Notes: generated by a model from the letters alone, not told the origin. 64,000 bases of DNA from Candidatus Levybacteria bacterium RIFCSPLOWO2_02_FULL_37_18 (GCA_001784115.1 MFPD01000005.1:7074-71073), one strand, 5' to 3'. Counted from the stretch's first letter, positions 3,537 to 62,893 are shown. Numbers and translations are program-made.

Positions 3537-4655
3537 ATGTTTTCCAAATTTAAACTTCCAAAGATTGAGTGGCCTGCTGTATTAAATGTATTGTCTCTCT
3601 TTTCAAGCTTTCTATTTTACTATTGGAAGAAAAGAGTCCTAACCGCTTCGATTGTTTTTGAGAAAAACAAAAACGTGGCGGTTAGGTTTTTTATCATGAA
3701 GCGGGGTCGGTACAACCGGCCGTTTTTGCATATTACCACCATGATTGTTTTGGCAATCGGCGTTTTTATTGCTCCTTTTTTAGCAGACACCTATCCGGTG
3801 TTTTCAACAGGTTCTTCAACGTTTGCGTTTTCAACATTAAATAAAGCAGAATCTATAACAGTTGATTCACAAGTTTTTTCAACCAATGTTTCGCAAAAAC
3901 CCAGGGATAAGATAGAAACGTATATAGTACAAAAAGGAGATACGCTTTCGACAATCGCCAAGAAATTTGATATATCGGTCGAAACGATTAAATGGGCAAA
4001 TGATTTAACAGATGATGACTTAACAGTAGGGGATACTTTAAAAATTTTGCCGGTTACAGGAATATCTCATAAGGTATCAAAAGGAGATACAGTATATACA
4101 ATTGCTAAAAAATATGACATAAATCCGCAGCTCATCGTTGATTTTCCATTTAATGAGTTCGCAAACCCGGAGACATTTTCTTTAGTAGAGGGGCAGATCG
4201 TTATAGTCCCGGAGGGAGTAAAGCCGTCAGAAAAGCCTGTATTCAGGAGACAAACGTATGTAGTCCAAGGACCAATATCAATCTCTTCTGCAGGATTTAC
4301 TTGGCCTTTGCGGGGAGAAATCAGCCAGTTTGCCGCGTGGTATCACATGGCTTTAGATATTACCTCACCTGTTGGTACGCCAATTGTTGCAGCTCAGGAT
4401 GGGAAGGTCGTTAAATCCTTAATTGGAGTATGGGATGGAGGATATGGGACAAGTGTTATGGTAGATAATGGAGAAGGGTATTCTTCTTTGTATGCGCACT
4501 TGTCAGGAGTTAGCGTAGATGTAGGAGATACCGTTGTAGCGGGAAAGACAGTTTTAGGCTGGGTTGGAATGACAGGGAGAACTACAGGTCCTCATGTCCA
4601 TTTCGAAATCAGCCGCAATGGAGTCTTAGTTAATCCAATGTCGTACCTACAGTAG
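3537..4655 (+). CDS. LysM-domain (x2) M23 family metallopeptidase (peptidoglycan hydrolase); alternative start ATG at 3696 (MKRGRYNR)
   Basis: two LysM motifs (YIVQKGDTLSTIAKKF, HKVSKGDTVYTIAKKY); M23 motifs HMALDI...GYGTSVMVDNGEGYSSLYAHL...GPHVHFEI. Confidence 0.85.
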   Translation: MFSKFKLPKIEWPAVLNVLSLFSSFLFYYWKKRVLTASIVFEKNKNVAVRFFIMKRGRYNRPFLHITTMIVLAIGVFIAPFLADTYPVFSTGSSTFAFSTLNKAESITVDSQVFSTNVSQKPRDKIETYIVQKGDTLSTIAKKFDISVETIKWANDLTDDDLTVGDTLKILPVTGISHKVSKGDTVYTIAKKYDINPQLIVDFPFNEFANPETFSLVEGQIVIVPEGVKPSEKPVFRRQTYVVQGPISISSAGFTWPLRGEISQFAAWYHMALDITSPVGTPIVAAQDGKVVKSLIGVWDGGYGTSVMVDNGEGYSSLYAHLSGVSVDVGDTVVAGKTVLGWVGMTGRTTGPHVHFEISRNGVLVNPMSYLQ

Positions 4656-4822
4656 CATACAGTATAGAGTATATGGTATTATAGTATATAGCAAATAAAA
4701 TCTTGTTCCCGAATACAATATACTTTATACCCGATACTCTATACTCGTTTGGGCCTGTAGGTAAACGGCATACCGATACATTCGCATTGTATAATTCCGA
4801 GTTCAATTCTCGGCAGGTCCAC

Positions 4823-5394: not shown

Positions 5395-5463
5395 TAATTT
5401 ACAATTTTCAATTTACAATTTTCAAATAAATTTTGAATTTTGCATTTTGAATTTTAAATTTAC
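5395..5463. repeat. heptamer-periodic AT-rich tandem repeats (caattta / caatttt / gaatttt)
   Basis: visible about 7-bp periodicity, directly upstream of CDS 5467. Confidence 0.6.
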
Positions 5464-21675: not shown

Positions 21676-24600
21676 TTAATTTACTATTAACCAATTAAAG
21701 GGAATATCAGTTTTGGGTTGGTTGTTTACTCCCACAGTAAATGATTCATTTGGTACTTGGCGAAGGAGATACAAAACTTCATTATTTGTGTTGCCGTTTG
21801 GCGTGATATAAATAAGTGATTTTTCCGTCACCAAACTATTTCTAATGGTGAGTTCGGATTGGTATGCACTTATGGTAGCAATTCCTGCAGAGCCTGTGGC
21901 AATGATTTCCGAACTTGACAGAGCTAAAGCTTTACTGATCGGGCTTAGATTAAGCTTAGAAAATGTGCCGGAGCCTGAGGCTACTACATTTCCTTGTTCA
22001 CTCACTGCAAAAACAGCAGAGCCGGAAGCATTGGTAACAGTAAGCGTTTTTTCAAATGTAGCATTGCCTTTTACTTGCATATTTCCTTCGATATCAAACG
22101 TAATTAATCCGCCAAGGAAGTTAATACCTCCTTGTCTTAGCGGTTGGATTTCCAGACTGCTATCTAGCACATTAATAGAGTTATCTGTTAAAACAAGGCC
22201 GGTATTTGGGCTGCCGATACTAACAGTTCCTGTAAACGAGGCATCGGTAAAGGTGGAGGGACCGAGAGAAATAAAGCCATAATTAAACTTCGGAAAACTC
22301 AGAATACTCGGAGAATCAGATGAATTCAGATTTTTCAGATAATCAGATACGCTAAGGTTGTCTGCAATAATTGTTCCGGCGCGTAGAACTCCTCCAATGC
22401 TTGCATTACCACTATTGTTAAATTGTTCTATTGTTAAATTGTTAAATTGTCCAGATTGAGCTGTAAGTTGGCCTGAGAACGAGGCGTTGCCTGTACTATC
22501 TATAGTAGCAACAGCGCTGCCGGAGGCGTTTTGGACCTCCACGATAATGTCATTGCGAGGAGACACGTCTGACGTGTTCGACGAAGCAATCCCTTGAGAT
22601 TGCTTCGCTCCGCTCGCAATGACGAGTCTTCCGTTCACCACTACCGAATCAGAAGACAAGGGAGAAATGGTATCGGTATGGATTTGGTCAACGTAAGCAA
22701 TGGGAGAAACAACCTTAGTATCTAGTATTAAGTATTTAGTATTTAGTATATTCGTATTAAGCGTATCAATAGTTCCATTGGCAGCAGTGAGTGTTTGAGT
22801 TGCGAGCTCGGAAGTTTTGATAGAGCCTTCTACTGCGAGTTCTTTGGCATGAATGTAGCCGGCTTCTAGATTTGCAATAACAGCCTTACTAAAAGTTCCA
22901 ATACGATTTATAAGTTGGTCTGTTGCCTTGTTGTTTAAAGAAAATGATATGGTTTGGTCCTGTTGTGTTATAGTTTGGGGAACAGAACCAAATGTCGGAT
23001 CAAGATCAATCGAGAGATTACCGGTGTCAGTAAGATAAACATCGGGGTCGTGAAATGAAGGCTGGAGGATCGTGTTCACGATGCAGATATTATTGTCATT
23101 GTGAGGAGTACCGAGCTTGTCGAAGGATGACGAAGCAATTCCATCTGAAGTAGATTGCTTCACTTCGTTCGCAATGACAGAACAAGAAGGTTCTGAAAGG
23201 GCTCGGCCCACCACTCTTCCTGCCCGGGTTGCTTTCATGGCAACTCCAGGAACAGAACTGTTAGTAAGATAGTCTCCGGGTTTTATGTCTCCGCTCTCGG
23301 TCGAAACTTTTAAAGGCAACTGGCCAAGGAGGCCGACTAAAACATAGTTTGGGTCATTGTCATGGTCGCTTCCGCCGACAAAACCGGCTCTGTCTGAGAC
23401 AATTCCGAGGATATTATTGTTTGTTTGATCACACTTACCAACACCGCCGTCTTCTGCCAGACAGACAAGGTCACCGGGTTCAAAAGATTGCTTCGTCCTC
23501 CACGCTTCGCTCTGAGTCCTCGCAATGACATTACTTTTTCTAAAGTATTCTGCAAAGTCAACGCCGGTTGTGGAGTATTTGACTCCCCCTCCAAAACTTT
23601 GGATTTTTCCCTGAATCTGGCCGTTTCCATCCAGAAACGTAGTAAAATAATTTGTGTTTGATCCTGTTGTAAAACCTAATTTTAAAGCCAAGGCAACAGA
23701 ATTAGCACCTGTATCGGTATTTTCAATCATGGCTACTGCAGTTGCAGATTGACTATCGGAAACATGCAGTTTATAGGCAGGATTTGTGGTACCAATTCCA
23801 ACATTGCCGGTTGTACCCGAGACTAAAAATTTAGCAGCAGCAGTTGAATTTCCGCCAACCAGCAGATCATCAGTTATATTTGTCGGCGCAACTGTTCCAA
23901 GTGATCGTAAAAACGGCGGAGTCTGCCAGGTTGGAACACCGCCTAAGACAGTCAAAACTTGATTTGACGAGCCAATACTTCTTTTTGAAAGCGAAGTGGG
24001 ATTGGAAGATGCGGCATATAAAATATCGCCGGTTGAGTAGGTGGTTAGACCTGTTCCGCCATAATTTGCTTTTATTGATGTTGCCTGCCATGTGCCTGTT
24101 GAAATAGTTCCAACTTGTGTTAGAGAAGAATTTACAACAGCAGTTCCCAAAGTAGTTGCAGAGAGAACATCAGTTGCGTTAATTTGATAGGTTTTGCCGG
24201 AAGACAAGTTCATTGTGCCGGTATTTAGCACAGTGCCCGAACCATTGAGAGGGGAAAGAGTAATATTTCCGGTTGTATTTCCGCCGATAGTTAGGCTATT
24301 ATTCCCTGTTGTTTGAATACTTCCTGCTCCGGTTCTAAAACTTAAAGAACCGGATACAGAGGCACTTCCTGCTATATCAAGAAATGCAGAAGGGGTAGAA
24401 GTGCCAAAACCAATATTTCCTCCTTGAGTAATAACAAGATAGGAATTGGGGTTTGGCGTTGTTCCATTTACGCCAATTTGCAAATTGCCGGAAGTTGTAG
24501 AAATAGAAACAGCATAATCGAGTGTTTGTCCGCAGCCATCAGTAGTTGTGCATTGAACATGCAAAGAAGAAGGACCTACATATAGACTTTTAAATCGGGC

Positions 24601-30185: not shown

Positions 30186-33002
30186 ATGAAAGACTACAAG
30201 CCTTTGGAAATTGAGGTTAAGTGGAAAAAAATGTGGGACGAGAAAAAAATATACAGCCCTGATTTGGACAGCGTAAAAAGGCCATTTTATAACCTGATGA
30301 TGTTTCCCTATCCGTCTGCGGAAGGACTTCACGTAGGCTCGGTCTTTACATTCACCGGCGTTGATACATACGGAAGATTTAAACGCATGCAGGGATTTGA
30401 TGTCTTCGAACCCATGGGACTTGACGGGTTTGGAATTCACAGTGAAAACTATGCCTTAAAAGTGGGCCGCCATCCAAAAGAACAGGCAAAACGATCAGAA
30501 GAGAACTTTTATCGACAGCTTTCTTCTATTGGAAATGGGTTTGACTGGAGCAGAAAACTAGAAACATATGATCCAAACTATTACAAATGGACTCAATGGA
30601 TCTTTATACAGCTCTTTAAAAGAGGACTTGCATACAGAAAAAAAGCTCCGGTAAACTTCTGTCCTTCATGTAAAACAGTTCTTTCGGATGAGCAGGTCAT
30701 TGATGGGAAATGCGAGAGGTGTGGTTCGGTTGTCGAAAAAAGAGAGCTTGAACAATGGTTCTTTAAAATCACTGACTATGCAGAGCGACTTTTGAATAAT
30801 ATCCCAAAGTTGAACTGGACAGAAAAAGTTAAGATTGCCCAAAGGGATTGGATCGGAAAGCGGGAAGGAACCACAATCCGCTTTGTCATTGCGAGGACCC
30901 AGAACGAAGTGAAGGGGACGAAGAAATCTCAAAAAGATCAGATTATCATGGGTTCTGCGAACCCTCGCAATGACAGTCAATATATTGAGGTTTTTACCAC
31001 ACGGGGCGATACGCTGTATGGGGCGACGTTTATTGTTTTGGCACCCGAGCACCCGGTCGTCGCTTCGCTCCTCCGGAATTCAGAATTAGAAAAGATACGA
31101 AAGTACGTTGAGGAGGTCAAAAAGAAAACGGAGATTGAAAGGGGAGCACAAGGGAAAGAGAAGACAGGGGTATTTACCGGTTTATACGCGATCAATCCGA
31201 TTAATAATGAATCAATTCCTGTATGGATTGCAGATTACGCGTTGATGGGTTATGGCACAGGAGCATTATTTGGAGATGCGCATGACGAGCGGGACGTAGC
31301 GTTTGCTAAAAAATATGGAATTCCTCTAAAAGCAACTCTTATTACAGGAGACAAAGAAAGAGACGAGCGTATTCTAAAGCTTGAAGAATGTTTTACCGGA
31401 GACGGGACATTGGTTGATTCGGGGGAATTTTCAAGGTTGTCTTCACAGCAAGCACGGGAAAGAGTAGCAGAATGGCTCGAAAAGAATAAAAAAGGAGGCA
31501 GAAAAGTAACGTATCATCTTCGCGACTGGCTTATTAGCAGGCAGAGATACTGGGGGCCGCCGATACCGATGATCTACTGTCAAAGTTGTGCAGGTAAAGG
31601 CAGATCTTGGTTTAATTCCATTGACAGTAAAGAAGAGAATGTATCAAGTATTAAGTATAAGGTATCAAGCAAGGACGGGAAATTTCTTAATACTAAATAC
31701 GTAATACATACTACTGATGACATGGTAGGATGGTATCCAATTCCCGAGGAAGACCTGCCTGTCATCCTGCCCGATGTCCAAGATTGGAGGCCTGAAGGAA
31801 CCGGAGTCTCGCCCTTGGCAAATCATCCGGAATTTTATAAAACAACGTGTCCTAGTTGCGGTGGAAAAGCAAGGCGGGAAACAGACGTCTCGGATACATT
31901 TTTAGATTCTGCTTGGTACTTTTTTAGGTATTTAGCAACGGAGATACATGATGTGCCGTTTCCTTCGGAAGGGTTCATAAATTCCAAATCAACAAATCAA
32001 CAAATCAACAAATCAACAAATTTGATGATTGGAAATTGGAAATTGGAAATTGGAAATTTCGCGAAGCGAGTAAAGTGGCTTCCCGTAACTATGTACATTG
32101 GCGGAGCAGAACATTCGGTTCTCCACCTATTATACTCCAGGTTTATTACTATGGCGTTTAAGGATTTGGGTTTGATTGATTTTGAAGAGCCGTTTGCTCG
32201 GTTTTACGCACATGGACTTATTATTAAAGATAGAGCGAAAATGAGCAAAAGCAAAGGCAATGTCATAAATCCGGACGAGTATTTGGCAAAATACGGCGCA
32301 GATGTTTTACGGGCGTATTTAAGGTTTGTAGGGCCATTTGATATGGGAGGCGATTTTAGGGACAGCGGAATTGAGGGAATGCAGAGATTTTTGAAACGAG
32401 TTTGGAGATTGGTTAATGATGTCATCGCGAGCGAAGCGAAGCAATCTTCTGACCCGAAAGAGATTGCTTCGCCCTCCTTTGGCGAGGCTCGCAATGACAA
32501 TGAGGGAAAACGAGTAATGAATAGGATAATCAAGGGAGTAACAGATGATCTGGAGGCTCTGCGATTTAATACTGCCATGGCAAAGCTGATGACGTGGTAT
32601 AACTATCTTTCTCAGCAAAAAAATGTAAGTAAAAAAGAGCTTGAGACATTTTTAAAGCTTCTGGCGCCTATTGCGCCTTTTATAACCGAGGAATTATATC
32701 AAAATGTCATTGCGAGTCCGGAGGGCGCTGCAATCTCAGATGACGGAAGTTTTCGATCTGTTCATCTTCAACCGTGGCCGTCATACGAGCCTAAGATGCT
32801 GGAAGAAGGAGAAGTAACAATTGTGGTTCAGGTGAATGGGAAAGTTCGTGATTCGTTCACAGTTCATAGTTTACAGTTCACAGAACAAAGCAAAGTTGAA
32901 AAGAAAGCAAAAGAGAGTTCAAAGATAAAAAAGTATATAGAGGGGAAAAAGATTAAGAAAGTCATTTATGTTGAGGGGAAAATTATCAATTTTGTCGTCT
33001 AA
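30186..33002 (+). CDS. leuS: leucyl-tRNA synthetase, carrying three in-frame palindromic-element insertions and one heptamer-repeat insertion
   Basis: LeuS N-terminus MKDYKPLEIEVKWKKMW...FPYPSAEGLHVGSVFTF; KMSKSKGN motif; VKWLPVTMYIGGAEHSVLHLLYSRF. Confidence 0.9.
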   Translation: MKDYKPLEIEVKWKKMWDEKKIYSPDLDSVKRPFYNLMMFPYPSAEGLHVGSVFTFTGVDTYGRFKRMQGFDVFEPMGLDGFGIHSENYALKVGRHPKEQAKRSEENFYRQLSSIGNGFDWSRKLETYDPNYYKWTQWIFIQLFKRGLAYRKKAPVNFCPSCKTVLSDEQVIDGKCERCGSVVEKRELEQWFFKITDYAERLLNNIPKLNWTEKVKIAQRDWIGKREGTTIRFVIARTQNEVKGTKKSQKDQIIMGSANPRNDSQYIEVFTTRGDTLYGATFIVLAPEHPVVASLLRNSELEKIRKYVEEVKKKTEIERGAQGKEKTGVFTGLYAINPINNESIPVWIADYALMGYGTGALFGDAHDERDVAFAKKYGIPLKATLITGDKERDERILKLEECFTGDGTLVDSGEFSRLSSQQARERVAEWLEKNKKGGRKVTYHLRDWLISRQRYWGPPIPMIYCQSCAGKGRSWFNSIDSKEENVSSIKYKVSSKDGKFLNTKYVIHTTDDMVGWYPIPEEDLPVILPDVQDWRPEGTGVSPLANHPEFYKTTCPSCGGKARRETDVSDTFLDSAWYFFRYLATEIHDVPFPSEGFINSKSTNQQINKSTNLMIGNWKLEIGNFAKRVKWLPVTMYIGGAEHSVLHLLYSRFITMAFKDLGLIDFEEPFARFYAHGLIIKDRAKMSKSKGNVINPDEYLAKYGADVLRAYLRFVGPFDMGGDFRDSGIEGMQRFLKRVWRLVNDVIASEAKQSSDPKEIASPSFGEARNDNEGKRVMNRIIKGVTDDLEALRFNTAMAKLMTWYNYLSQQKNVSKKELETFLKLLAPIAPFITEELYQNVIASPEGAAISDDGSFRSVHLQPWPSYEPKMLEEGEVTIVVQVNGKVRDSFTVHSLQFTEQSKVEKKAKESSKIKKYIEGKKIKKVIYVEGKIINFVV
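30885..30974. repeat. palindromic element (90 bp, 30 aa, in frame) inside leuS: VIARTQNEVKGTKKSQKDQIIMGSANPRNDSQ
   Basis: gtcattgcgag...ctcgcaatgac termini. Confidence 0.8.
31985..32060. repeat. heptamer tandem repeats (caaatca x4 then ggaaatt x4) in frame inside leuS (KSTNQQINKSTNLMIGNWKLEIGNF)
   Basis: direct 7-bp repeats visible in sequence. Confidence 0.85.
32422..32499. repeat. palindromic element (78 bp, 26 aa, in frame) inside leuS: VIASEAKQSSDPKEIASPSFGEARND
   Basis: gtcatcgcgagcgaagcgaagcaatc...gattgcttcgcc...ctcgcaatgac. Confidence 0.85.
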
Positions 33003-33897: not shown

Positions 33898-35208
33898 ATG
33901 AACAAAGTTCAGATCGCAGTTGCAGTATTTTTATTTATTGCACTTTTGTTGAGGTTCTATTTCTACTTCCATAATCAAATTCCTTATCAAGACGGGGAGA
34001 AAGTAGAACTGGAAACCACGCTTTTTTCCCAACCAACCGTAGGCAGATTTAATCAAAAACTATTTATCCAAACCAAGCGGGGTCGAGTTTGGGTCATACT
34101 ACCTACGTATCCTCAGTATCATTACGGAGATATTATCCAAATTTCAGGCTCAATAAAATTAAAATCAAGCACTCAGAATAGTGGAATGCTAAGGAAAGAA
34201 AGGGTTATTCCGGTAATCTATTTTCCCGAAGTTGCGCCTGGAAAAAATGATAAAAATTTTGGGTTAGCCCCGATTCAATCGGGGTTAGCAATTGCTTCTT
34301 TCTTTCGCCAAAAAATGATTACGCTTTTTCAAAATTCTCTCTCTTCACCTTCGTCCAGTCTTTTGCTGGGAATTGTTTTTGGGATTAAAGAGTCCGTGGG
34401 TACGCAATTTACCTATCATTTACGAGTGTCGGGGGTTATGCACGTGGTGGCTGCGTCAGGAATGAATGTGACCATGGTAATTGCTTTTTTAACGCCGATT
34501 TTTTTATTAATCTTTCGGCGCCAAATAGCATTACTGCTTGTTGGTGTATGTATCCTATTTTACGCGTTTGTTTCAGGGCTCCAGGCATCGATTGTGCGGG
34601 CAAGCATTATGGGAATGTTTGTTTTAGCAGCTCAAGTCACGGGCAGGCAAACATGGCCTCTCTATGGGCTTTGTATGGCCGGATTTTTAATGCTTTTTAT
34701 AAGTCCTCAAACACTTTTTGACATAGGGTTCCAACTTTCGTTTATATCAACACTCGGATTATTGTTTATTCGACCGCTTATTGGTTTTAAAAATGTATTA
34801 GGAGATGATATGGCAACAACTATCTCTGCTCAAATCGCGACACTTCCCATACTCCTTGGGAATTTTGGCAGTTATTCAGCAGTTTCTGTGGTTGTAAATG
34901 GGTTGGTATTATGGACAGTACCAATTCTAATGATTATTGGAGGAATTGGGGGGCTGATTGGCCTTGTATTTGAACCACTAGGTAAACTTCTCCTTTTTGT
35001 CTCCCTCCCTTTTTTGATATATTTTGAGATGGTAGTGTCATGGTTTGGAGAGCATTCGGGGACAATCTCAGTATCTTCTTTTCCGTGGGAACTTGGAGCG
35101 GGGTATTATTTGATACTTAGTTCCTTTGTTCTCTATTTCCAGAAAACTCGGAATACTCGGAAAATCAGTAATTCAGCACATCAGAAAGCCAGAAAATCAG
35201 AACAATGA
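33898..35208 (+). CDS. comEC: ComEC/Rec2 competence channel, membrane portion (DUF4131 plus Competence domain)
   Basis: LRVSGVMHVVAASGMNVTMVIAF ComEC signature; polytopic. Confidence 0.8.
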   Translation: MNKVQIAVAVFLFIALLLRFYFYFHNQIPYQDGEKVELETTLFSQPTVGRFNQKLFIQTKRGRVWVILPTYPQYHYGDIIQISGSIKLKSSTQNSGMLRKERVIPVIYFPEVAPGKNDKNFGLAPIQSGLAIASFFRQKMITLFQNSLSSPSSSLLLGIVFGIKESVGTQFTYHLRVSGVMHVVAASGMNVTMVIAFLTPIFLLIFRRQIALLLVGVCILFYAFVSGLQASIVRASIMGMFVLAAQVTGRQTWPLYGLCMAGFLMLFISPQTLFDIGFQLSFISTLGLLFIRPLIGFKNVLGDDMATTISAQIATLPILLGNFGSYSAVSVVVNGLVLWTVPILMIIGGIGGLIGLVFEPLGKLLLFVSLPFLIYFEMVVSWFGEHSGTISVSSFPWELGAGYYLILSSFVLYFQKTRNTRKISNSAHQKARKSEQ

Positions 35209-36071
35209 AGAAGCATCTACTTATTATTTGTCTTTCTCTTTTAGCTTTAGCGGGGTTGATCTTGTATCAGCGTTTTATATTTTTTGATGGTAAACTACAT
35301 CTGGTTTTTTGTGATGTGGGCCAGGGAGACGGAATATTTATTCGCACACCGAATGGAAAAAATATTATTGTAGACGGAGGGCCGGATGACAAGATTGTAT
35401 CGTGTTTGTCTTCTCACATGCCGTTTTGGGAGAAAATTATACACATGGTTATACTCACTCATCCCCACGCGGATCACCTAAACGGCCTAATTCCTGTAAT
35501 AAAACGATATACTGTTTTATCTTTTGATACTGAAAAAATCGAAAATAAAACAGGAGGGTTTTTGCAGTTAACGCAAGTAATTCAAAAAAAGAAAATACCA
35601 ATGAGGTTTCTTTGGCAAGGAGACACTTTTGGCATAAAAGACGGAGTTACGCTTACTATTGCCGGCCCAAGTAAAGAGTTTTTGGATGAGACGAGTCCTG
35701 GAGGAACAATCGGAGAGACAAAAGAATTCGGCTCCGTCCAAACACTTGTTTCGTATGGTTCTTTTAGAATACTTCTTACAGGTGATAGTCAGGCACAAGA
35801 ATTAGAAGATGCGCTAAAAAGTGGTATTTTGAATACTATTGATGTATTCCAGATACCACATCATGGTTCGAAAACGGGAGTTAATCGGGAAATAATCGAA
35901 AAGCTTAATCCGAAATTAGTAGTGATTTCTGTAGGAAAAAACAACTACGGCCACCCAAGTCCGGAGGTTGGGGAGTTATTAAGAAATAAAGAGATTAAAG
36001 TGCTAAGGACAGATAAAAATGGAAGTATAGAGATTATAAGCGACGGGAGGAAATTTGAAATTAAAAAATAA
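35205..36071 (+). CDS. ComEC C-terminal metallo-beta-lactamase domain as a separate, overlapping ORF
   Basis: HPHADH motif (VILTHPHADHLNGL), IPHHGS; 4-nt overlap ATGA with the upstream ORF. Confidence 0.75.
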   Translation: MKKHLLIICLSLLALAGLILYQRFIFFDGKLHLVFCDVGQGDGIFIRTPNGKNIIVDGGPDDKIVSCLSSHMPFWEKIIHMVILTHPHADHLNGLIPVIKRYTVLSFDTEKIENKTGGFLQLTQVIQKKKIPMRFLWQGDTFGIKDGVTLTIAGPSKEFLDETSPGGTIGETKEFGSVQTLVSYGSFRILLTGDSQAQELEDALKSGILNTIDVFQIPHHGSKTGVNREIIEKLNPKLVVISVGKNNYGHPSPEVGELLRNKEIKVLRTDKNGSIEIISDGRKFEIKK

Positions 36072-36918: not shown

Positions 36919-36927
36919 GCTCGAAGA

Positions 36928-39450: not shown

Positions 39451-39483
39451 CCAATTTACAATTTACAATTTACAATTTACAAT
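39451..39483. repeat. heptamer tandem repeat (caattta x4.5) immediately upstream of the argS start
   Basis: ccaatttacaatttacaatttacaatttacaatg. Confidence 0.85.
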
Positions 39484-39489
39484 GAAAGA

Positions 39490-41385
39490 ATGAAACATGT
39501 TATTCGCAAAGAGATCGAAAGAGTTCTTAAGGACATGGGACTGGTTCGTGTCGAGTTTACGATAGAGCATCCGGGGGAAAGTTCGCATGGAGACTACTCG
39601 TCAAATATAGCGTTGGTTGTGTTTGGTGAATTCGAAGCACGAAACTCGAAAATCGAAACAAATTCAAAAAATATAAAACTCAAAACACCCTTGGAATTAG
39701 CACAGGAAATAGTAAAAAATTTCAAATTTCGGATTTCATCCATTCAACAAGTTCAGGACAAGAATTTCAAATTTATTGACCGGGTGGAAGTGGCGGGGCC
39801 TGGGTTTATAAATTTCTGGTTGACAAAGGAGTATTTGTTTGATTCGATGATTCGAATCATTAAAGCAAAAGAAGAGTTTGGGAAAGGAGGTGGTTTAAAA
39901 AATAAAAAAGTTATGGTTGAATACACAGATCCCAATCCGTTTAAAGAGTTTCATATAGGACACTTATATAGCAACGCGGTTGGAGAGTCATTAAGCAGGC
40001 TTTTTGAAGCACAAGGGGCAGAAGTCAGAAGGGCCAATTATCAAGGAGATGTGGGAATGCACGTTGCAAAATCCCTGTACGGGATTTTGCAACAATTCAG
40101 AATTCACAATTCACAATTCAGAATTGGCGAAGAATTACAGAAACTCGAGAAAGAATCACTCAATGAACGGATTGAGTTTTTGGGGCAGGCGTATGTATTG
40201 GGAGCAAAAGCTTATGAAGAAGACGAAAAGGTCAAGCAAGAGATACATGTCTTAAATAAGCAAATTTACGAACTTGATCCAAAAATTAAAGACATCTATT
40301 TACAAGGAAGACAATGGAGTCTGGATTATTTTGAGACAATTTACAAGCGCTTGGGTACAAAATTTGATGGTTATTATTTTGAAAGTGAAGCAGGAGAAAT
40401 TGGTTTACAACTTGTTTATGAATATCAAAAAAAGGGAGTTTTTGCAGAAAGCGAAGGTGCTGTAATTTTTCCCGGAGAAAAATATAATCTCCATAACAGG
40501 GTGTTTGTAAATTCCTTGGGATTGCCAACGTACGAAGCCAAAGAACTAGGGCTGAATAAAAAAAAGTATGAAGATTATCCTTTTGATGCGTCTGTTATCG
40601 TAACAGGAAATGAAATCAACGAGTATTTTAAAGTGCTTCTTTGCGCGATGGAACAAGTAATCCCCGAAGTTGCCCAAAAAACCAAACATATTGGTCATGG
40701 CATGGTACGTCTTCCACAGGGAAAAATGTCGTCAAGGACTGGCAATGTAATAACAGGCGAGTGGCTTTTGGATGAAGCAAAGCGGAGAATTAGTTCAAAA
40801 TTTTCGGAAATGGCGGACAAGACAGCAGAAATGGTAGCGGTAGGAGCGGTAAAGTATGCGCTTTTAAAATCCGGAATAGGGAGGGATATTGAATTTAGTT
40901 TTGACGAGTCGATAAGTTTGGAAGGAAACTCAGGGTCGTACCTCCAATACACGTACGTGAGGACGCAGAGTGTACTCTCTAAATTTCAAATAAATACCAA
41001 TAACCAAAAAGATTTAAAATTGGAAATTGGAAATTGGAAATTGGAAATTGAAGAAGAAAATATTCTTCGACTATTGTATCGGTTTCCGGAAGTGGTGGAA
41101 GAAGCAAGCGGGCACTTGGCGCCGAATTATATTTGCAGTTACTTGTTTGAGCTGGCTCAGGCCTTTAATCTGTTTTACCAAAAACACAAGATCCTAGATC
41201 AAAACGTCATCCCGAACTTGTTTCGGGATCCCCAACATTCTGATAATGAGATGCTGAATCGAGTTCAGCATGACAAGAATAAGGATGATACAAAAAGGTT
41301 CAGAATACTGCTTACTGCATCAGTGGGGCAGGTATTATACAATGGATTATACATGCTGGGTATTGCGGTTCCGGAGAGAATGTGA
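39490..41385 (+). CDS. argS: arginyl-tRNA synthetase (start MKHVIRKE at 39490), with two in-frame heptamer-repeat inserts and one in-frame palindromic element
   Basis: HPGESSHGDYSSNIAL, FHIGHLYSNAVGESL (HIGH-like), C-terminal DALR anticodon-binding region ending PERM. Confidence 0.9.
   Translation: MKHVIRKEIERVLKDMGLVRVEFTIEHPGESSHGDYSSNIALVVFGEFEARNSKIETNSKNIKLKTPLELAQEIVKNFKFRISSIQQVQDKNFKFIDRVEVAGPGFINFWLTKEYLFDSMIRIIKAKEEFGKGGGLKNKKVMVEYTDPNPFKEFHIGHLYSNAVGESLSRLFEAQGAEVRRANYQGDVGMHVAKSLYGILQQFRIHNSQFRIGEELQKLEKESLNERIEFLGQAYVLGAKAYEEDEKVKQEIHVLNKQIYELDPKIKDIYLQGRQWSLDYFETIYKRLGTKFDGYYFESEAGEIGLQLVYEYQKKGVFAESEGAVIFPGEKYNLHNRVFVNSLGLPTYEAKELGLNKKKYEDYPFDASVIVTGNEINEYFKVLLCAMEQVIPEVAQKTKHIGHGMVRLPQGKMSSRTGNVITGEWLLDEAKRRISSKFSEMADKTAEMVAVGAVKYALLKSGIGRDIEFSFDESISLEGNSGSYLQYTYVRTQSVLSKFQINTNNQKDLKLEIGNWKLEIEEENILRLLYRFPEVVEEASGHLAPNYICSYLFELAQAFNLFYQKHKILDQNVIPNLFRDPQHSDNEMLNRVQHDKNKDDTKRFRILLTASVGQVLYNGLYMLGIAVPERM
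41015..41050. repeat. heptamer tandem repeat (ggaaatt x4) in frame in argS (LKLEIGNWKLEIEEE); a second tract (ttcacaa / ttcagaa) lies at 40093-40126
   Basis: direct 7-bp repeats. Confidence 0.85.
41206..41274. repeat. palindromic element (gtcatcccgaacttgtttcgggatcc...gctgaatcgagttcagcatgac) in frame near the argS C-terminus
   Basis: TGTCAT-type termini with two internal hairpins; encodes VIPNLFRDPQHSDNEMLNRVQHDK. Confidence 0.75.
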
Positions 41386-41444
41386 GATAATAACCAAACT
41401 CAAAAGTCAAAGGTCAAAAGTTCAGGTCAAAAGTAAAAAGTATT

Positions 41445-41490
41445 GTCATGCCGAACTTGTTTCGGGATCCTGAAATAAATTCAGGATGAC
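41445..41490. repeat. palindromic element (gtcatgccgaacttgtttcgggatcctgaaataaattcaggatgac), intergenic
   Basis: inverted termini GTCATGCCGAAC / TTCAGGATGAC. Confidence 0.7.
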
Positions 41491-41523
41491 TTTTCGTCAA
41501 TTTTGCCTTTTGCATTTTGATTT

Positions 41524-42834
41524 TTGAATTTTATTACCATGCAATACCAGCGGAGTGTTTTTCCCAATGGTCTTCGCGTACTCACCATCCCCATGCCTTC
41601 GTTTGAGAGCGCTACGGTTTTGGTAATGGTGAGAGCTGGCTCTCGGTACGAAACAAGAAGAAATAACGGCATTTCCCATTTTTTAGAGCACATGGCGTTT
41701 AAAGGGACCTCAAGGCGGCCTTCTGCTTTGGAAATTTCTTCTTTAGTCGACGGAATCGGCGGAGAAGTAAATGCATTCACCGGCAAAGAAACCACGGGCT
41801 ATTACATAAAATCCCAGGCAACACATATTGATTTGTCTTTGGATATTTTGTCAGACATGCTGCAGAATTCCTTGTTTAAGACCGAAGAAATTGACAAAGA
41901 GCGGGGAGTAATTTTGGAAGAAATAAATTTATACGAAGATACGCCGGCTCGAAAAATCGGCGACGTGTATGAAAAACTTTTGTACCAAGATACGCCAATG
42001 GGTTGGGATATTGCCGGAGAAAAAGACGTGATTAAAAGCATTACCCGGGAAGATTTTGTACAGTACATGGAGAGTTTGTACAGCGCGGATAACATTACTG
42101 TTGTTGTTGCGGGCGGAGTTGACAGCAAAAAAGCAGAAGAGTTAGTGGAAAAATACTTCGGGAAAATGCATGCTTTTGACATACAAAGTTATATAAAAGT
42201 ACTAGAAAAACAAGACAAGCCCGAGGTTTTGATTAAGCATAAAAAAACAGAGCAGGTACACATTGCTTTGGGTGTGAGGACTGTTTCGATAAATCATCAT
42301 CACAAGTATCCGCTCTTAGTTCTTTCAGCTATTTTAGGTGGGGGAATGAGCAGCAGGTTGTTTTGTGAAGTCAGGGAAAAAAGAGGACTGGCCTATTATG
42401 TTCGTTCGAGTTCGGATCATTATCAAGACTGCGGAAGCTTAGTAACGACAGCAGGAGTTGATGCCAAACGGGTCGAGCAGGCGATAGAAGTAGTCGTTCA
42501 AGAGTACAATAAAATCTCAAATCAACAAATCAACAAATCAACAAATCAACAAATTTCAAAGGAAGAATTGAAGAAAGCCAAGGAGTATTTGAAGGGGCAT
42601 ATGGTGTTAGAGCTCGAAGACAGCAGGTCGGTGGCTGGATTTTTTGCTTCGCAGGAGTTACTCGAAGAAGGAATTAAAGCACCGGAGGATATATTGCACG
42701 CCATAGACAGAATTACCTTAGAAGACATAAAGCTGGTAGCAAAGACGTATCTTGTTGCGGAAAAACTGAATCTGGCGGTGATTGGTGATTTTGAGGACAA
42801 GGATCGGTTCGAATCCCTCTTGCAATTACAATGA
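41524..42834 (+). CDS. M16 family (insulinase-like) zinc peptidase, with an in-frame heptamer repeat insertion (42519-42555)
   Basis: HFLEHMAFKGT inverted zincin motif (HxxEH); 436 aa. Confidence 0.85.
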   Translation: MNFITMQYQRSVFPNGLRVLTIPMPSFESATVLVMVRAGSRYETRRNNGISHFLEHMAFKGTSRRPSALEISSLVDGIGGEVNAFTGKETTGYYIKSQATHIDLSLDILSDMLQNSLFKTEEIDKERGVILEEINLYEDTPARKIGDVYEKLLYQDTPMGWDIAGEKDVIKSITREDFVQYMESLYSADNITVVVAGGVDSKKAEELVEKYFGKMHAFDIQSYIKVLEKQDKPEVLIKHKKTEQVHIALGVRTVSINHHHKYPLLVLSAILGGGMSSRLFCEVREKRGLAYYVRSSSDHYQDCGSLVTTAGVDAKRVEQAIEVVVQEYNKISNQQINKSTNQQISKEELKKAKEYLKGHMVLELEDSRSVAGFFASQELLEEGIKAPEDILHAIDRITLEDIKLVAKTYLVAEKLNLAVIGDFEDKDRFESLLQLQ

Positions 42835-50718: not shown

Positions 50719-52503
50719 ATGGATAATGATAAAGAATATCTAAACAATCTAAGACACTCCTGCGCGCATTTACTTGCTGCAGCTGTTCGAAGTTTGTGGC
50801 CAGAGACAAAAAATGCCATTGGTCCGGCAATTGAGAATGGATTTTATCAGGATTTTGATCTGGGAGACGTAAAACTGCCTGAAACTGATTTTGAGAAAAT
50901 CGAAAGCAAAATGCATGAAATTGCTTCTTTATGGCATGAATTCGAGACTAAAGAAGTTTCAGCCGAACAAGCAAGAAAAGATTTTGCCTGGAATCCATAC
51001 AAACTTGAACTTATCGAAGAATTTGCAAGCGGTGGTAAAAAAATTATGGAAAATAACCCAGGTAATTTTCTTGACCTGTGCAAAGGAGGGCATACCGATA
51101 ATCTAAAAGAAGAACTCAAACACTTTAAATTACTTTCTGTTGCCGGAGCATATTGGAGGGGAAACGAAAAAAATAAAATGCTTACACGAATTTATGGTAC
51201 TGCTTTTGCGACAAAAGAAGCATTAGATGAGCATTTGCACATGCTTGAAGAAGCAAAAAAAAGAGACCATAGAAAAATTGGCAAAGAGCTTGGGCTTTTT
51301 GTGTTTTCTGATTTGGTTGGTCCCGGACTTCCGCTATTTACCCCGAAAGGCTCAACCATTCGACGCATACTGGAGAGATTTATCGTGGATGAAGAACTTA
51401 AAAGAGGATATATGCACGTATATACGCCTCCTCTTGCAAAAACCGATTTATATAAAACGTCCGGCCATTACCCGTATTACAAAGATACAATGTACCCGCA
51501 CATGCAAGTTGATGAAGACGAGCTTATTTTGCGTCCTATGACGTGTCCACATCACTTTATGCTGTATAAATCAACTCCTCACAGTTATAAAGAACTTCCT
51601 GTCAGACTTGCAGAAATTTCTCCTCAATTTCGGTATGAAAAAAGCGGTGAGCTAACAGGGCTTATGCGGGTGAGAATGTTTACGCTTTCGGACGCACACA
51701 TTATAGCCCGGCCCGATCAGGCAGAAGAAGAAATAAACAATGTTTTAGATTTAATTGAGTCTGTAAATAGCAAGTTTGGGCTTGTGAAGGGAAAAGATTA
51801 TAAATATCGTCTTTCTTTGGGAGACAGAAACGACGAAAAAAAATATTATAAAGATGATGCTTTGTGGAATAAAGCAGAAGATATTTTAAGAAAAGTCTTA
51901 ACCAAGCGTAGCGCTCCCTTTTATGAAGCAGAGGCAGAAGCTGCATTTTATGGCCCAAAAATTGACGTGCAAATGAAGAATGTATCGGGTAAAGAAGAAA
52001 CCGCGTGTACCGTCCAATATGACTTCGTTATGCCAAAGCGTTTTAACTTAACATATATTGACTCAGATGGCAAAGAAAAGGAACCGATTGTAATTCACCG
52101 AGCATCAATTGGTGCAATAGAGCGCACCATGGCATTTTTAATAGAAAAGTTTGGGGGGGCATTGCCCCTTTGGCTTTCGCCTGTTCAAATAGTATTGATT
52201 CCTATAGCTGACCGGCATATTCAACATGTCCATACTGTAAACAATACACTCATAACTAATAACATCCGATCATCTATTGATGATCGTTCTGAGGGCATGC
52301 AAGCTAAAATTCGCGATGCTACTTTACAAAAAGTGCCTTATATGGGTATAATAGGAGATAAGGAAGTTGAAAGTTCGAAGTTGAAAGTTCAAAGTGACGA
52401 ACCAATGATTTCCGTAAGAACCAGGGATGGAAAAGACCACGGACGTGTAAAACTGTCCGATTTTATTAAACAGGTTCAAGACGAAATTGATAAAAAAACA
52501 TAA
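50719..52503 (+). CDS. thrS: threonyl-tRNA synthetase (begins at the second additional domain; no TGS domain), with an in-frame 16-bp tandem repeat near the C-terminus (52362-52395)
   Basis: HSCAHLLAAAV, RDHRKIGKELGLF, class II motifs; anticodon-binding C-terminus. Confidence 0.9.
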   Translation: MDNDKEYLNNLRHSCAHLLAAAVRSLWPETKNAIGPAIENGFYQDFDLGDVKLPETDFEKIESKMHEIASLWHEFETKEVSAEQARKDFAWNPYKLELIEEFASGGKKIMENNPGNFLDLCKGGHTDNLKEELKHFKLLSVAGAYWRGNEKNKMLTRIYGTAFATKEALDEHLHMLEEAKKRDHRKIGKELGLFVFSDLVGPGLPLFTPKGSTIRRILERFIVDEELKRGYMHVYTPPLAKTDLYKTSGHYPYYKDTMYPHMQVDEDELILRPMTCPHHFMLYKSTPHSYKELPVRLAEISPQFRYEKSGELTGLMRVRMFTLSDAHIIARPDQAEEEINNVLDLIESVNSKFGLVKGKDYKYRLSLGDRNDEKKYYKDDALWNKAEDILRKVLTKRSAPFYEAEAEAAFYGPKIDVQMKNVSGKEETACTVQYDFVMPKRFNLTYIDSDGKEKEPIVIHRASIGAIERTMAFLIEKFGGALPLWLSPVQIVLIPIADRHIQHVHTVNNTLITNNIRSSIDDRSEGMQAKIRDATLQKVPYMGIIGDKEVESSKLKVQSDEPMISVRTRDGKDHGRVKLSDFIKQVQDEIDKKT

Positions 52504-53298: not shown

Positions 53299-53345
53299 AT
53301 TATTTTAAACTGTAATTTTGAATTTTGATTTTTTAATTTTATAGT

Positions 53346-62747: not shown

Positions 62748-62789
62748 AAAGTTAAAAATTCAAAATTCAAAATTACAGTTTAAAATAAT

Positions 62790-62841
62790 GTCATGCTGAA
62801 CTGGATTCAGCATCTAGGACACTGAAACAAGTTCGGGGTGA
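62790..62841. repeat. palindromic element (gtcatgctgaactggattcagcat...ctgaaacaagttcggggtgac) between purH and purD
   Basis: TGTCAT-type termini, internal hairpins shared with 41445.. and 53765.. copies. Confidence 0.7.
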
Positions 62842-62893
62842 CCTTTGGTCAATTTTTCACTTTTAACTTTGAACTTTTAATTTGATACTCACC

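What the first reader, a model, noticed from the sequence alone, without database searches (positions are those of the whole stretch)
31985..32060. Heptamer-periodic microsatellites inserted in frame into aminoacyl-tRNA synthetase and peptidase genes
Tandem 7-mers are seen in leuS (caaatca x4 then ggaaatt x4, giving KSTNQQINKSTNLMIGNWKLEIGNF), argS (40093-40126 QQFRIHNSQFRIGEE; 41015-41050 LKLEIGNWKLEIEEE), the M16 peptidase (42519-42555 ISNQQINKSTNQQISKEE) and thrS (52362-52395). They also occur in 5' leaders (5395-5463, 39451-39483). Related periodic low-complexity tracts (tcagaaN, agtattt) are inside the giant genes and the comEC 3' end. A 7-bp unit keeps the frame only in blocks of three, yet every coding copy preserves the frame. 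That implies selection after insertion. I do not recognise a described repeat family matching this.
Basis: seen in the sequence. Interest (0 to 1): 0.65.

Follow-up and report, generated by a model that had tools for sequence, protein, structure and literature searches.

The report
Seven-base repeat arrays inside essential genes
Short runs of four to five copies of a 7-base (sometimes 8-base) unit sit in frame in loops of essential genes of a Levybacteria (CPR) genome; the same arrays recur at the same protein sites across the CPR, often next to a small hairpin copied from the neighbouring gene sequence, which looks undescribed.

Summary
The repeats are real and far beyond chance: period-7 tandem repeats number 25 against 1.2 in shuffles. 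They are present in several independent assemblies. Two quoted "heptamers" (leuS 31985-32021, M16 42518-42554) are actually identical 8-mers.

The window is a Candidatus Levybacteria (CPR) genome. Arrays are 30-37 nt (4-5 units) and lie in three settings:
- 6-14 nt upstream of start codons;
- just after stop codons, as arms of hairpins;
- in frame in poorly modelled loops and linkers of LeuRS, ArgRS, M16 and ThrRS.

(GGAAATT)4 occurs in at least 120 genome stretches. Most are CPR; some are Nitrospirae, Planctomycetes and cyanobacteria. About 79% lie inside ORFs, in both orientations, at recurrent sites in orthologues. A GC-rich hairpin often follows, and its inner arm can be an inverted copy of conserved flanking codons.

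Orthologues differ by exactly 7 aa (3 units). One argS array has a -7 nt frameshift allele in two assemblies.

Best reading: STRR-like heptanucleotide repeats made by slippage and template switching, filtered by selection for frame and absence of stops. A tiny mobile element is not excluded. This is a new variant of known kinds.

The parts
31985..32021 (+). (CAAATCAA)x4.6 octamer array in leuS, encoding SKSTNQQINKSTN
   Evidence: TRF 100% matches. In frame. Identical 37-nt array plus TT in the M16 gene.
32028..32058 (+). (ATTGGAA)x4.4 heptamer array in leuS, encoding IGNWKLEIGNF. This is the same 31-nt array as in many other genomes.
   Evidence: Same array at the same LeuRS site in L123, L124, L095 and L128-L140.
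32059..32069 (+). Short hairpin TCGC-GAA-GCGA directly after the array. It is weak here (4 bp) but much stronger in orthologous copies.
   Evidence: Not significant on its own in the window (P = 0.4). In 8 of 12 LeuRS-site copies the arm starts 0-1 nt after the array; 7 of the 12 have a perfect stem of at least 6 bp.
31641..31715 (+). Inverted pair of imperfect heptamer arrays (GTATCAA-type, with the complement downstream) in frame in leuS (VSSIKYKVSS...NTKYVIHTT)
   Evidence: TRF. Fold z = -2.3. No counterpart in T. thermophilus LeuRS. pLDDT below 50 at residues 492-504.
32855..32883 (+). (GTTCACA)x4.1 imperfect array in leuS (SFTVHSLQFTE)
39452..39483 (+). (CAATTTA)x4.6 array ending 6 nt before the argS ATG. 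It contains a promoter-like TTTACA-17-TACAAT.
39632..39738 (+). Two imperfect heptamer arrays (TCGAAAC x4.0, AAATTTC x3.1) in the argS N-terminal domain
   Evidence: The region is variable among orthologues.
40092..40125 (+). (ACAATTC/AGAATTC)x4.9 array in argS (QQFRIHNSQFRI). In orthologues the same site holds other arrays or palindromic cores.
41017..41050 (+). (AAATTGG)x4.9 array in the argS linker before the DALR domain. A -7 nt (3.9-copy) frameshift allele exists in two other assemblies.
   Evidence: Same ArgRS site in the opposite orientation in L114.
41396..41532 (+). Intergenic composite: heptamer array, then palindromic core (GTCATGCCGAAC...CAGGATGAC), then inverted heptamer array. 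It folds as one long hairpin between the argS stop and the M16 start.
   Evidence: Fold z = -3.8. Position relative to the stop and start codons.
42518..42554 (+). (CAAATCAA)x4.6 octamer array in the M16 peptidase gene (SNQQINKSTNQQI)
   Evidence: The loop is 7-aa periodic in 78 of 120 orthologues, and the window copy is 6 aa longer.
52363..52395 (+). (GAAGTTGAAAGTTC)x2.4 array in thrS, an expansion of native codons for EVES
   Evidence: That EVES is conserved in ThrRS is from my own knowledge of E. coli ThrRS.
5396..5461 (+). Two abutting heptamer arrays (AATTTAC/AATTTTC, then AATTTTG) ending 6 nt before a start codon
   Evidence: Fold z = -4.0.
4653..4746 (+). Inverted pair of heptamer arrays (TAGTATA ... 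TATACTC) between a stop codon and tRNA-Ala
53314..53340 (+). (AATTTTG)x3.9 array ending 6 nt before a start codon (MARVKRG...), next to a palindromic core
62746..62885 (+). Intergenic array, palindromic core, inverted array composite between the purH stop and the next start codon
   Evidence: Fold z = -2.9.
22414..22450 (-). Octamer array in the 1769-aa giant gene, mutated in exactly the copy where TAA would be in frame
22715..22758 (-). (TTAGTAT)x6.1 array in the giant gene. TAC TAA is replaced by TAC TTA where the stop would be in frame.
35140..35202 (+). Imperfect 8/16-mer array (CAGAAAAT) at the 3' end of comEC

Best explanation
These are the CPR form of the heptanucleotide simple-sequence repeats long known from cyanobacteria (STRR), Xanthomonas and Beggiatoaceae. 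They are AT-rich arrays of 4-5 units (30-37 nt).

They are not genes or RNAs. I infer that they are products of a replication or repair bias. In this model, strand slippage favours a 7-nt step. Fold-back template switching builds a short hairpin from an inverted copy of the adjacent sequence. Arrays with the same unit are then kept perfect and alike by slippage and, probably, short-patch gene conversion.

Selection then decides where arrays persist. In intergenic DNA they abut start and stop codons. In coding DNA only arrays with no stop codon in the gene's orientation and a total length that keeps the frame survive. They therefore accumulate at a few permissive loops and inter-domain linkers of conserved proteins, where I infer they are translated into 7-residue-periodic, probably disordered peptides.

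Shown: the non-random period and length; the location in loops; the recurrence at orthologous sites; 7-aa (21-nt) differences between orthologues; a single-unit slippage allele; stop avoidance; and the polar association with flank-derived hairpins.

Inferred: the slippage and template-switch mechanism; gene conversion between loci; and the lack of any function for the peptides.
For: Period and length
- Period 7 is 20-fold over-represented in the window.
- In 0.83 Mb of other loci, 285 period-7 TRF rows include 92 different units.
- In about 0.9 Mb (those loci plus the window), exact period-7 runs other than GGAAATT show a hump at 30-34 nt and none longer than 34 nt.

Evidence of slippage
- The argS array has 3.9 copies instead of 4.9 in two independent assemblies that are 99.6-99.9% identical over 7.5 kb. 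Other assemblies made with the same assembler keep 4.9 copies.
- LeuRS orthologues differ by exactly 7 aa inside the array: KEIEN[FKLKIEN]S against KEIENS, giving length classes of 50 and 43 aa.
- The thrS array is an expansion of native codons.

Evidence of selection
- Stop-codon avoidance.
- Inserts fall in regions with pLDDT below 50 that are absent from T. thermophilus LeuRS.

Homogenisation between loci
- An identical 39-nt octamer array occurs in leuS and M16, and the same GGAAATT unit occurs in leuS and argS.

Hairpins
- Of 122 (GGAAATT)n arrays, 29% have a 3' flank with MFE of -7 or lower. The figure is 6% for 5' flanks and 12% for controls.
- Perfect stems of at least 6 bp follow 24% of arrays, against 2.3% of controls.
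- In L140 the inner arm is the exact inverted copy of conserved WLPV codons. In L095 it copies MPV. In L123 and L125 it copies RSE. The same holds in LepA (L028, L108).

Literature
- Heptamer SSRs are over-represented in many bacteria, and a polymerase-slippage cause has been proposed (PMC4692102, citing Mrazek 2007).
Against: - Simple one-unit slippage cannot take an array from about 1.4 to 4.4 copies inside an essential gene without passing through frameshifted states.
- The sharp upper limit near 5 units, in coding and non-coding arrays alike, is not predicted by open-ended slippage.
- The identical 31-nt (GGAAATT)4.4 occurs at the same LeuRS site in Microgenomates and Parcubacteria, and in both orientations at the ArgRS and LeuRS sites. 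This is hard to explain by vertical descent plus local slippage alone.
- GGAAATT arrays also occur in GC-rich genomes of other phyla.
- Within the sampled population most arrays show no length variation.
- For units other than GGAAATT the hairpin enrichment is weak.
Confidence: 0.5

Rival explanations
1. A tiny non-autonomous mobile element, comparable to Rickettsia palindromic elements. A pre-formed module of about 30-100 nt (one or two heptamer arrays, sometimes with a palindromic core) is inserted by a host or element enzyme, for example an HUH/Y1 transposase or a fold-back repair pathway. The insertion copies a few bases of the target in inverted orientation. Copies survive only where they are in frame and lie in a permissive loop.
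For: - (GGAAATT)n arrays cluster at 30-32 nt (67 of 122), and 74 of 122 end in the same phase.
- 79% lie inside ORFs, in both orientations, in unrelated proteins.
- The same site is filled in opposite orientations in ArgRS (window against L114) and in LeuRS (window and L095 against L071 and L076).
- Identical 39-nt arrays occur in two genes of this genome.
- Intergenic copies have an array-core-array foldback architecture.
- The polar, flank-derived hairpin looks like an insertion scar.
- A palindromic-core fragment is nested inside an array in P0064.
- A RAYT-like Y1 transposase gene lies in the window.
- The arrays occur across phyla, including GC-rich genomes.
Against: - No conserved termini, target motif or target-site duplication was seen.
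- More than 90 different units share only period and length, unlike copies of one transposon.
- No clean filled-versus-empty pair was found.
- The thrS array derives from native sequence.
- The Y1 gene scores only 35 bits against a cutoff of 80 for the RAYT model and is not flanked by repeats.
- Arrays at the M16 and ArgRS sites look ancient and continuously remodelled.
Confidence: 0.3
2. The arrays are functional. In leaders they act as promoter or translation-initiation elements of largely Shine-Dalgarno-less, possibly leaderless genes. In coding regions they act as flexible linkers or as phase-variable switches that can split or silence a gene.
For: - Six intergenic arrays end 6-14 nt before start codons.
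- (CAATTTA)n forms a 10-of-12 promoter match 6 nt before the argS ATG.
- Only 1 of about 37 genes has a Shine-Dalgarno-like motif.
- TAACTGA heptamer repeats sit similarly upstream of start codons in Beggiatoaceae (PMC4679880).
- The -7 allele leaves a DALR-domain ORF open through the array, with a TTG codon inside it.
- Hairpin stems differ in sequence between the LeuRS-site copies while pairing is retained.
Against: - Both orientations occur at the same protein sites, giving unrelated peptides (NFQFPIS against GNWKLEI).
- Many orthologues lack any insert: 51 of 111 LeuRS.
- Promoter-like matches in the scanned regions do not exceed shuffles, and were found for only one array.
- The genes concerned are essential housekeeping genes, not contingency loci.
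- The coding solo arrays show no significant fold.
Confidence: 0.12
3. An assembly or sequencing artefact, such as collapsed or chimeric low-complexity sequence.
For: All data are metagenome assemblies. One array differs in copy number between assemblies.
Against: - The arrays (31-37 nt) are far shorter than reads and than the k = 141 seen in the contig names.
- Identical inserts were recovered in several independent MAGs and assemblies and in more than 120 genomes from many projects and assemblers.
- They keep long ORFs of conserved proteins intact.
Confidence: 0.01

Closest known systems
Heptanucleotide simple-sequence repeats: STRR of heterocystous cyanobacteria, GGGAATC of Xanthomonas, GGGGA(C/T)T of Nostoc, and the long SSRs of Mrazek et al. 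2007 (PMC4692102; STRR and Mrazek from that paper's text and my own knowledge)
   Same: - Tandem 7-nt units, strongly over-represented compared with other periods.
- Many different units per genome.
- Often arranged as inverted pairs.
- Enriched in intergenic DNA.
- Units of the form G(n)A(n)T(n).
- GGAAATT arrays are also present in Microcoleus and Anabaena.
   Different: - More than half of the arrays here lie inside genes, in frame, including aminoacyl-tRNA synthetases.
- Array length is capped near 5 units.
- A flank-derived hairpin follows many arrays.
- The host is a CPR bacterium with a small genome.
Rickettsia palindromic elements (Ogata et al. 2000; summarised in PMC10969869)
   Same: - Repeated DNA inserted in frame into many unrelated, often essential genes.
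- Tolerated because it lands in surface-exposed parts of the proteins.
- Found in a reduced genome.
   Different: - RPEs are palindromic elements of about 100-150 bp with family consensus sequences.
- The arrays here are 30-37 nt tandem repeats with more than 90 units and no consensus beyond period and length.
- The true RPE analogues in this window are the GTCATTGCGAG...CTCGCAATGAC and GTCATGCTGAA...TTCAGCATGAC palindromes, which occupy the same protein sites.
TAACTGA direct repeats of Beggiatoaceae, cyanobacteria and Bacteroidetes (PMC4679880)
   Same: - One specific heptamer in 2-6 tandem copies.
- Found across distant phyla with no known transfer mechanism.
- Mostly a few nucleotides upstream of start codons, as for six intergenic arrays here.
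   Different: - A different unit.
- TAACTGA contains stop codons and is essentially intergenic.
- Here the units are stop-free and mostly intragenic.
Tandem repeats of Borg elements that create disordered protein regions (PMC9879509)
   Same: - Perfect nucleotide tandem repeats inside ORFs that never break the frame and add low-complexity, disordered peptide.
- Slippage is discussed as the cause there too.
   Different: - In Borgs, the repeats inside ORFs have unit lengths divisible by three and are unique to each locus.
- Here the unit is 7 (or 8) nt, so the frame is kept only by total length, and the same units recur at many loci and in many genomes.
Small dispersed repeats inserted into heptamer arrays in Nostoc (Elhai et al. 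2008, Genome Res 18:1484; from memory, paper not held)
   Same: Very small repeats nested within tandem heptamer arrays and within genes. Compare P0064, where a palindromic fragment interrupts IGNWKL|...|EIGNS, and the M16 orthologues with ITHSA... inserted in the array loop.
   Different: Those elements are fixed 21-27 nt sequences. Here the arrays themselves are the recurrent entity.
Quasi-palindrome template-switch mutagenesis and fold-back (snap-back) repair synthesis (own knowledge: Ripley's model; work from the Lovett laboratory)
   Same: It produces perfect inverted repeats by copying the adjacent sequence in inverted orientation, which is exactly the structure of the hairpins next to the arrays.
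   Different: It is known as a point-mutation or short-patch process in model bacteria. It has not been described in association with tandem heptamer arrays or with recurrent insertions in coding loops.

Membership tests
Heptanucleotide SSR / STRR-type repeats | Head-to-tail tandem copies of a 7-nt unit | tested here: met
   TRF. Exact arrays at 32028, 39452 and 41017. Exception: the tracts at 31985 and 42518 are 8-mers.
Heptanucleotide SSR / STRR-type repeats | Period 7 over-represented relative to other periods and to chance | tested here: met
   25 rows against 1.2 in shuffles. 285 period-7 rows against about 20 for each neighbouring period in 0.83 Mb of other loci. Run-length distribution.
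Heptanucleotide SSR / STRR-type repeats | Mainly intergenic location | tested here: inconclusive
   15 of 35 arrays lie in the 12% of the window that is non-coding, so they are enriched there, but 20 of 35 are coding. 79% of GGAAATT arrays elsewhere lie in ORFs.
Heptanucleotide SSR / STRR-type repeats | Copy-number variation between strains (microsatellite behaviour) | tested here: met
   One case: argS has 4.9 or 3.9 copies. Differences of 7 aa occur between orthologues. Most arrays were invariant in the sampled population.
RPE-like / MITE selfish DNA in coding genes | In-frame presence in many unrelated conserved genes at permissive sites | tested here: met
RPE-like / MITE selfish DNA in coding genes | Copies share a family consensus sequence with terminal inverted repeats | tested here: not met
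   92 different units. Coding solo arrays are not palindromic. No conserved termini.
RPE-like / MITE selfish DNA in coding genes | Target-site duplication or a filled-versus-empty site polymorphism | tested here: inconclusive
   No direct duplications were seen. Orthologues without an insert exist, but they are too diverged for base-level comparison.
REP / REPIN mobilised by RAYT | Conserved GC-rich palindrome with a GTAG or CGTC tag, and a RAYT gene flanked by REPs | tested here: not met
   The hairpins next to arrays differ in every locus and derive from flanks. The Y1 gene at 36061-36765 has no flanking repeats and scores 35 bits against a cutoff of 80.
Phase-variation contingency locus | An SSR whose unit changes switch a surface or variable gene on and off | tested here: not met
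   A frameshift allele exists, but the genes are essential housekeeping enzymes and most arrays are invariant.
Leader heptamer repeats of the TAACTGA type | Arrays of 2-6 units within a few nucleotides upstream of start codons | tested here: met
   Arrays at 5396, 9328, 39452, 41500, 53314 and 62854 end 6-14 nt before start codons. The unit differs from TAACTGA.
Borg-type amino-acid tandem repeats | Repeat unit length divisible by three | tested here: not met
   Units are 7 or 8 nt.
Known structured RNA family | Match to an Rfam covariance model | tested here: not met
   Nothing but tRNAs at the gathering threshold. No hits at E <= 1 in 39300-42950 or 30800-32900.

The most novel reading that the evidence does not exclude
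The unit made of a heptamer array of 4-5 copies plus a hairpin built from an inverted copy of the target flank is the footprint of an undescribed insertion process. This could be a minimal, coding-compatible mobile element or a dedicated fold-back, reiterative-synthesis repair pathway. It would seed the same 30-35 nt arrays, in either orientation, at fixed permissive sites of essential genes throughout the CPR and in several other phyla.
Probability: 0.25. Interest if true: 0.8.

Novelty: new variant of a known kind. Interest (0 to 1): 0.6.

Why it matters
- Explaining protein length variation. If the reading is right, a simple mutational process, not gene content, accounts for much of the puzzling length variation of conserved CPR proteins. 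LeuRS ranges from 810 to over 1,100 aa among close relatives.
- Annotation and phylogeny. It provides a marker for alignment masking and phylogenetics, and warns annotators about spurious ORF extensions through six-frame-open arrays.
- Slippage in essential genes. Non-triplet microsatellites can live inside essential genes. Single-unit slippage then produces frameshifted aaRS alleles at detectable frequency, which bears on the mutation load, ploidy or split-protein tolerance of these ultrasmall bacteria.
- A testable old question. The polar, flank-derived hairpin and the cap at about 5 units are concrete signatures of whatever makes heptamer repeats. That question has been open since the STRR repeats were described in 1990, and these signatures could make it testable.

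Tried and rejected
1. RNA family. Rfam gave nothing at gathering or E-value thresholds.
2. Pairing of the two leuS arrays. The 8-mer and 7-mer arrays do not fold beyond shuffles (z = -1.4 on both strands), so this was rejected.
3. Arrays as obligatory flanks of the GTCATGCTGAA palindromic core. Several cores lack arrays (42857, 53765, 61067), so this was rejected.
4. Coding frame constraint as the only cause of the fixed length of about 31 nt. This is partly rejected. Coding arrays are more sharply peaked, but non-coding arrays and other units also stop at 34 nt or less.
5. Promoter function for all leader arrays. Only (CAATTTA)n gives a good match, and counts do not exceed shuffles.
6. Hairpin association for all units. 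It is only weakly enriched outside GGAAATT.
7. RAYT/REP explanation. The Y1 gene is a weak match and has no flanking repeats.
8. Literature. No paper mentions GGAAATT arrays, the peptide GNWKLEIGN, or heptamer repeats in Patescibacteria. Mrazek 2007 and Elhai 2008 are not held in the library.
9. Population polymorphism of the leuS, M16 and thrS arrays. None was found.


Full report
**Source and observation**

The window comes from a Candidatus Levybacteria (CPR/Microgenomates) genome from the Rifle aquifer. Its LeuRS is 100% identical to OGH18920.1.

They lie in frame in genes confirmed as leuS, argS, an M16 peptidase and thrS.

They are far from chance:
- TRF finds 25 period-7 rows against 1.2 in dinucleotide shuffles.
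- It finds 11 period-8 rows against 1.55, and 7 period-14 rows against 0.25.
- Exact arrays of at least 3 copies never occurred in 30 shuffles.

Two details are wrong. The first leuS tract (31985-32021) and the M16 tract (42518-42554) are octamers, (CAAATCAA)x4.6, and are identical over 39 nt. The thrS tract is a 14/7-mer that duplicates native codons (GAAGTTGAAAGT).

**Not an artefact, not local**

The same insert sequences are found in 5 LeuRS, 6 M16 and 2 ThrRS protein variants from many contigs of independent MAGs and assemblies.

Most are Patescibacteria of every major class. Twenty loci have 50% GC or more. These include Nitrospirae, Planctomycetes, Verrucomicrobia, Chloroflexi, Acidobacteriota, Methylomirabilota and Gemmatimonadota. 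The cyanobacteria Microcoleus and Anabaena also carry the array.

**Anatomy in the window**

There are 35 period-7 or period-8 arrays. Twenty are coding. Fifteen lie in the 12% of the window that is non-coding.

Intergenic arrays sit against gene ends:
- Six end 6-14 nt before a start codon (5396, 9328, 39452, 41500, 53314, 62854).
- Others start 6-33 nt after a stop codon.

Several form inverted pairs that fold as long hairpins, sometimes around a palindromic core of the form GTCATGCYGAAC...ATGAC. These are 41396-41532 (z = -3.8), 62746-62885 (z = -2.9) and 5396-5461 (z = -4.0).

The coding solo arrays of the finding do not fold beyond shuffles, and no Rfam family matches.

The (CAATTTA)n array contains TTTACA-17-TACAAT ending 6 nt before the argS ATG. 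The genome is almost free of Shine-Dalgarno motifs.

**Insertions in loops**

Against T. thermophilus LeuRS, residues 237-266, 470-514 and 595-627 (the finding) have no counterpart. An AlphaFold model gives pLDDT below 50 for 239-262, 492-504, 582-633 and 757-770.

Orthologue alignments show that these are hot spots, not one-off events.

- LeuRS, site before WLPVxMYIGGAEH. Of 111 relatives, 51 have the 23-aa base form. The others carry +12 to +45 aa. Many have ...EI(G/E)N(W/L/F)KL(K/E)I(G/E)NS..R..WLPV, and others have palindromic elements.
- ArgRS. The site after HVAKALYG and the linker before the DALR domain hold heptamer-periodic peptides or palindromic cores in most Microgenomates.
- M16. 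In 78 of 120 orthologues the loop already reads ISNFKFPISNE or VQNSKFKIQSS, which is 7-aa periodic. The window copy is 6 aa longer.

**The (GGAAATT)n family elsewhere**

Of 122 arrays, 96 lie in ORFs of at least 200 aa. Of these, 72 are antisense (NFQFPIS) and 24 are sense (GNWKLEI).

They recur at the same sites of orthologous proteins:
- the LeuRS editing-domain hairpin (L049, L057, L070, L088);
- the LeuRS site of the finding (L071, L076, L095);
- the ArgRS linker (L114, in the opposite orientation to the window);
- MnmA, PolA, LepA, RluD and PheS.

Array length is not geometric. It peaks at 30-32 nt (67 of 122), and 74 of 122 arrays end in the same phase. Exact period-7 runs other than GGAAATT, out of 92 units in all, show the same hump at 30-34 nt and none longer than 34 nt.

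**The hairpin**

Immediately 3' of (GGAAATT)n there is often a GC-rich hairpin.
- Perfect stems of at least 6 bp follow 24% of arrays, against 2.3% of controls.
- MFE of -7 or lower occurs in 29% of 3' flanks, 6% of 5' flanks and 12% of controls.

The association is therefore polar.

At the LeuRS site, twelve different copies were compared: the window, L123, L124, L125, L095 and L128-L140. In 8 of the 12 the 5' arm of the best stem starts 0-1 nt after the array. Seven of the 12 have a perfect stem of at least 6 bp. The stem sequences differ between copies. The window's own copy is weak (4 bp).

In several cases the outer arm is conserved native coding sequence and the inner arm is its inverted copy:
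- L140: ACAGGAAGCCA...TGGCTTCCTGT (WLPV);
- L095: CAGGCAT-ttc-ATGCCTG (MPV);
- L123 and L125: CGATCCGAG (RSE)-loop-CTCGGATCG-(AAAATTC)4.4;
- LepA: L028 and L108.

For units other than GGAAATT the enrichment is only weak overall.

**Dynamics**

- One-unit slippage. The argS array has 3.9 copies instead of 4.9 in two independent assemblies (ERZ4903070 and ERZ4903072) that are 99.6-99.9% identical to the window over 7.5 kb. This frameshifts ArgRS before its DALR domain. Other MEGAHIT assemblies keep 4.9 copies. In the -7 allele the DALR frame stays open through the array and contains a TTG codon. Whether a split enzyme is made is unknown.
- Three-unit steps. Orthologues differ by exactly 7 aa inside the array, giving length classes of 50 and 43 aa.
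- Selection. Arrays in the giant gene are mutated in exactly the copy where TAA would be in frame. Units of the other coding arrays have no stop in the gene's orientation. GGAAATT is open in all six frames, as are only 15% of AT-rich heptamers.
- Homogenisation between loci. This is suggested by the identical octamer arrays in leuS and M16.

**Interpretation**

The best-supported account has these parts:
1. These are STRR-like heptanucleotide repeats.
2. They are generated by slippage and fold-back template switching.
3. They are kept uniform by slippage and gene conversion.
4. They are retained only where frame, absence of stops and protein structure allow.

This account fits the period bias known in other bacteria (PMC4692102). 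It also fits the slippage allele, the 21-nt steps, the native seed in thrS, the stop avoidance and the loop locations.

It does not easily explain three observations:
- the cap at about 5 units;
- the identical 31-nt array at one site in deeply diverged CPR classes and in both orientations;
- how 4-5 units arise in an essential gene without lethal intermediates.

A minimal mobile or repair-insertion module therefore remains a serious rival (about 0.3). A functional role is plausible only for some leader arrays.

**Comparison with what is known**

- Heptamer SSRs (STRR, GGGAATC, TAACTGA) share the period, the diversity of units, the inverted pairs and the positions in leaders. They are described as essentially intergenic.
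- Rickettsia palindromic elements share in-frame residence in essential genes, but they are long consensus palindromes. Their analogues here are the GTCATTGCGAG...CTCGCAATGAC elements.
- Borg tandem repeats inside ORFs keep the frame through units divisible by three.

No paper in the held library describes heptamer arrays in Patescibacteria, their in-frame recurrence in aaRS genes, or the flank-derived hairpin.

**Verdict:** a new variant of known kinds, with an unexplained and testable mechanistic signature.

Noticed in passing
window 41017-41050; L121 4527-4553; L122: One-unit (-7 nt) deletion allele of the argS array in two independent assemblies. It frameshifts ArgRS to 566 aa without its DALR domain. 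The DALR frame stays open through the array and has a TTG codon inside it, so a split ArgRS is conceivable.
   Followed up: partly
window 36061-36765 (-) and 36766-36927: A RAYT-like Y1 (IS200-like) transposase gene: Pfam Y1_Tnp, plus a weak NCBIfam REP_Tyr_transpos hit. Upstream is a 15-mer tandem repeat (36827-36871) that has 3 copies here and 2 in L121. The promoter-like TTGACA...TACACT ends just before the ATG.
   Followed up: partly
window 22549-22623, 23095-23178, 26251-26322, 27595-27693, 30885-30974, 32421-32498 and other partial copies: At least 10 copies of a 72-99 nt palindromic element, GTCATTGCGAG...CTCGCAATGAC. They are in frame in the giant gene and three times in leuS (VIARTQNEVK..NPRND, VIASEAKQS..GEARND, VIASPEGAAISDD). 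These are the true RPE-like elements of this genome.
   Followed up: partly
window 41213-41274, 41445-41490, 42857-42903, 53765-53835, 61067-61090, 62790-62842: A second palindromic family with double hairpins, GTCAT(G/C)C(T/C)GAA...TTC(A/G)G(C/G)ATGAC. It is mostly intergenic next to start codons, and once in frame at the argS C-terminus (NLFRDPQHSDNEMLNRVQHD). Orthologues of ArgRS and LeuRS carry it at other sites.
   Followed up: partly
window, upstream of about 37 genes: Almost no Shine-Dalgarno motifs (1 of about 37). Many genes have -10-like hexamers 6-8 nt before the ATG, which suggests widespread leaderless or very short-leader mRNAs.
   Followed up: no
window 4751-4898: Two tRNA-Ala genes (CGC and GGC anticodons) abut with no spacer, directly after an inverted pair of heptamer arrays.
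   Followed up: no
LeuRS homologues P0005, P0029, P0040, P0044, P0049 and others: LeuRS length among close CPR relatives ranges from 810 to 1167 aa. Some carry fused NUDIX (PF00293) or alpha/beta-hydrolase (PF00561, PF06821) domains.
   Followed up: no
L025 ~58-140 and L100 ~4066-4190: Two contigs of one MAG (isolate Yes70-08) share a conserved segment of about 55 nt (ccgcaatcgtaacattctcgcggacaacgcaaatgttgcggggtaatattata) next to GGAAATT arrays. Coverage is very high (227x and 761x). Its nature is unknown.
   Followed up: no
L019 1810-1886 (Gemmatimonadota); L100; L065: In GC-rich genomes outside the CPR, the GGAAATT arrays occur as inverted pairs around spacers of about 17-31 nt. This is the foldback architecture seen in the window's intergenic composites.
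   Followed up: no
window 9364-26985 (-): Three consecutive giant genes (1600, 2455 and 1769 aa). The first has six Laminin_G_3 domains. They also hold repeat arrays and palindromic elements in frame.
   Followed up: no
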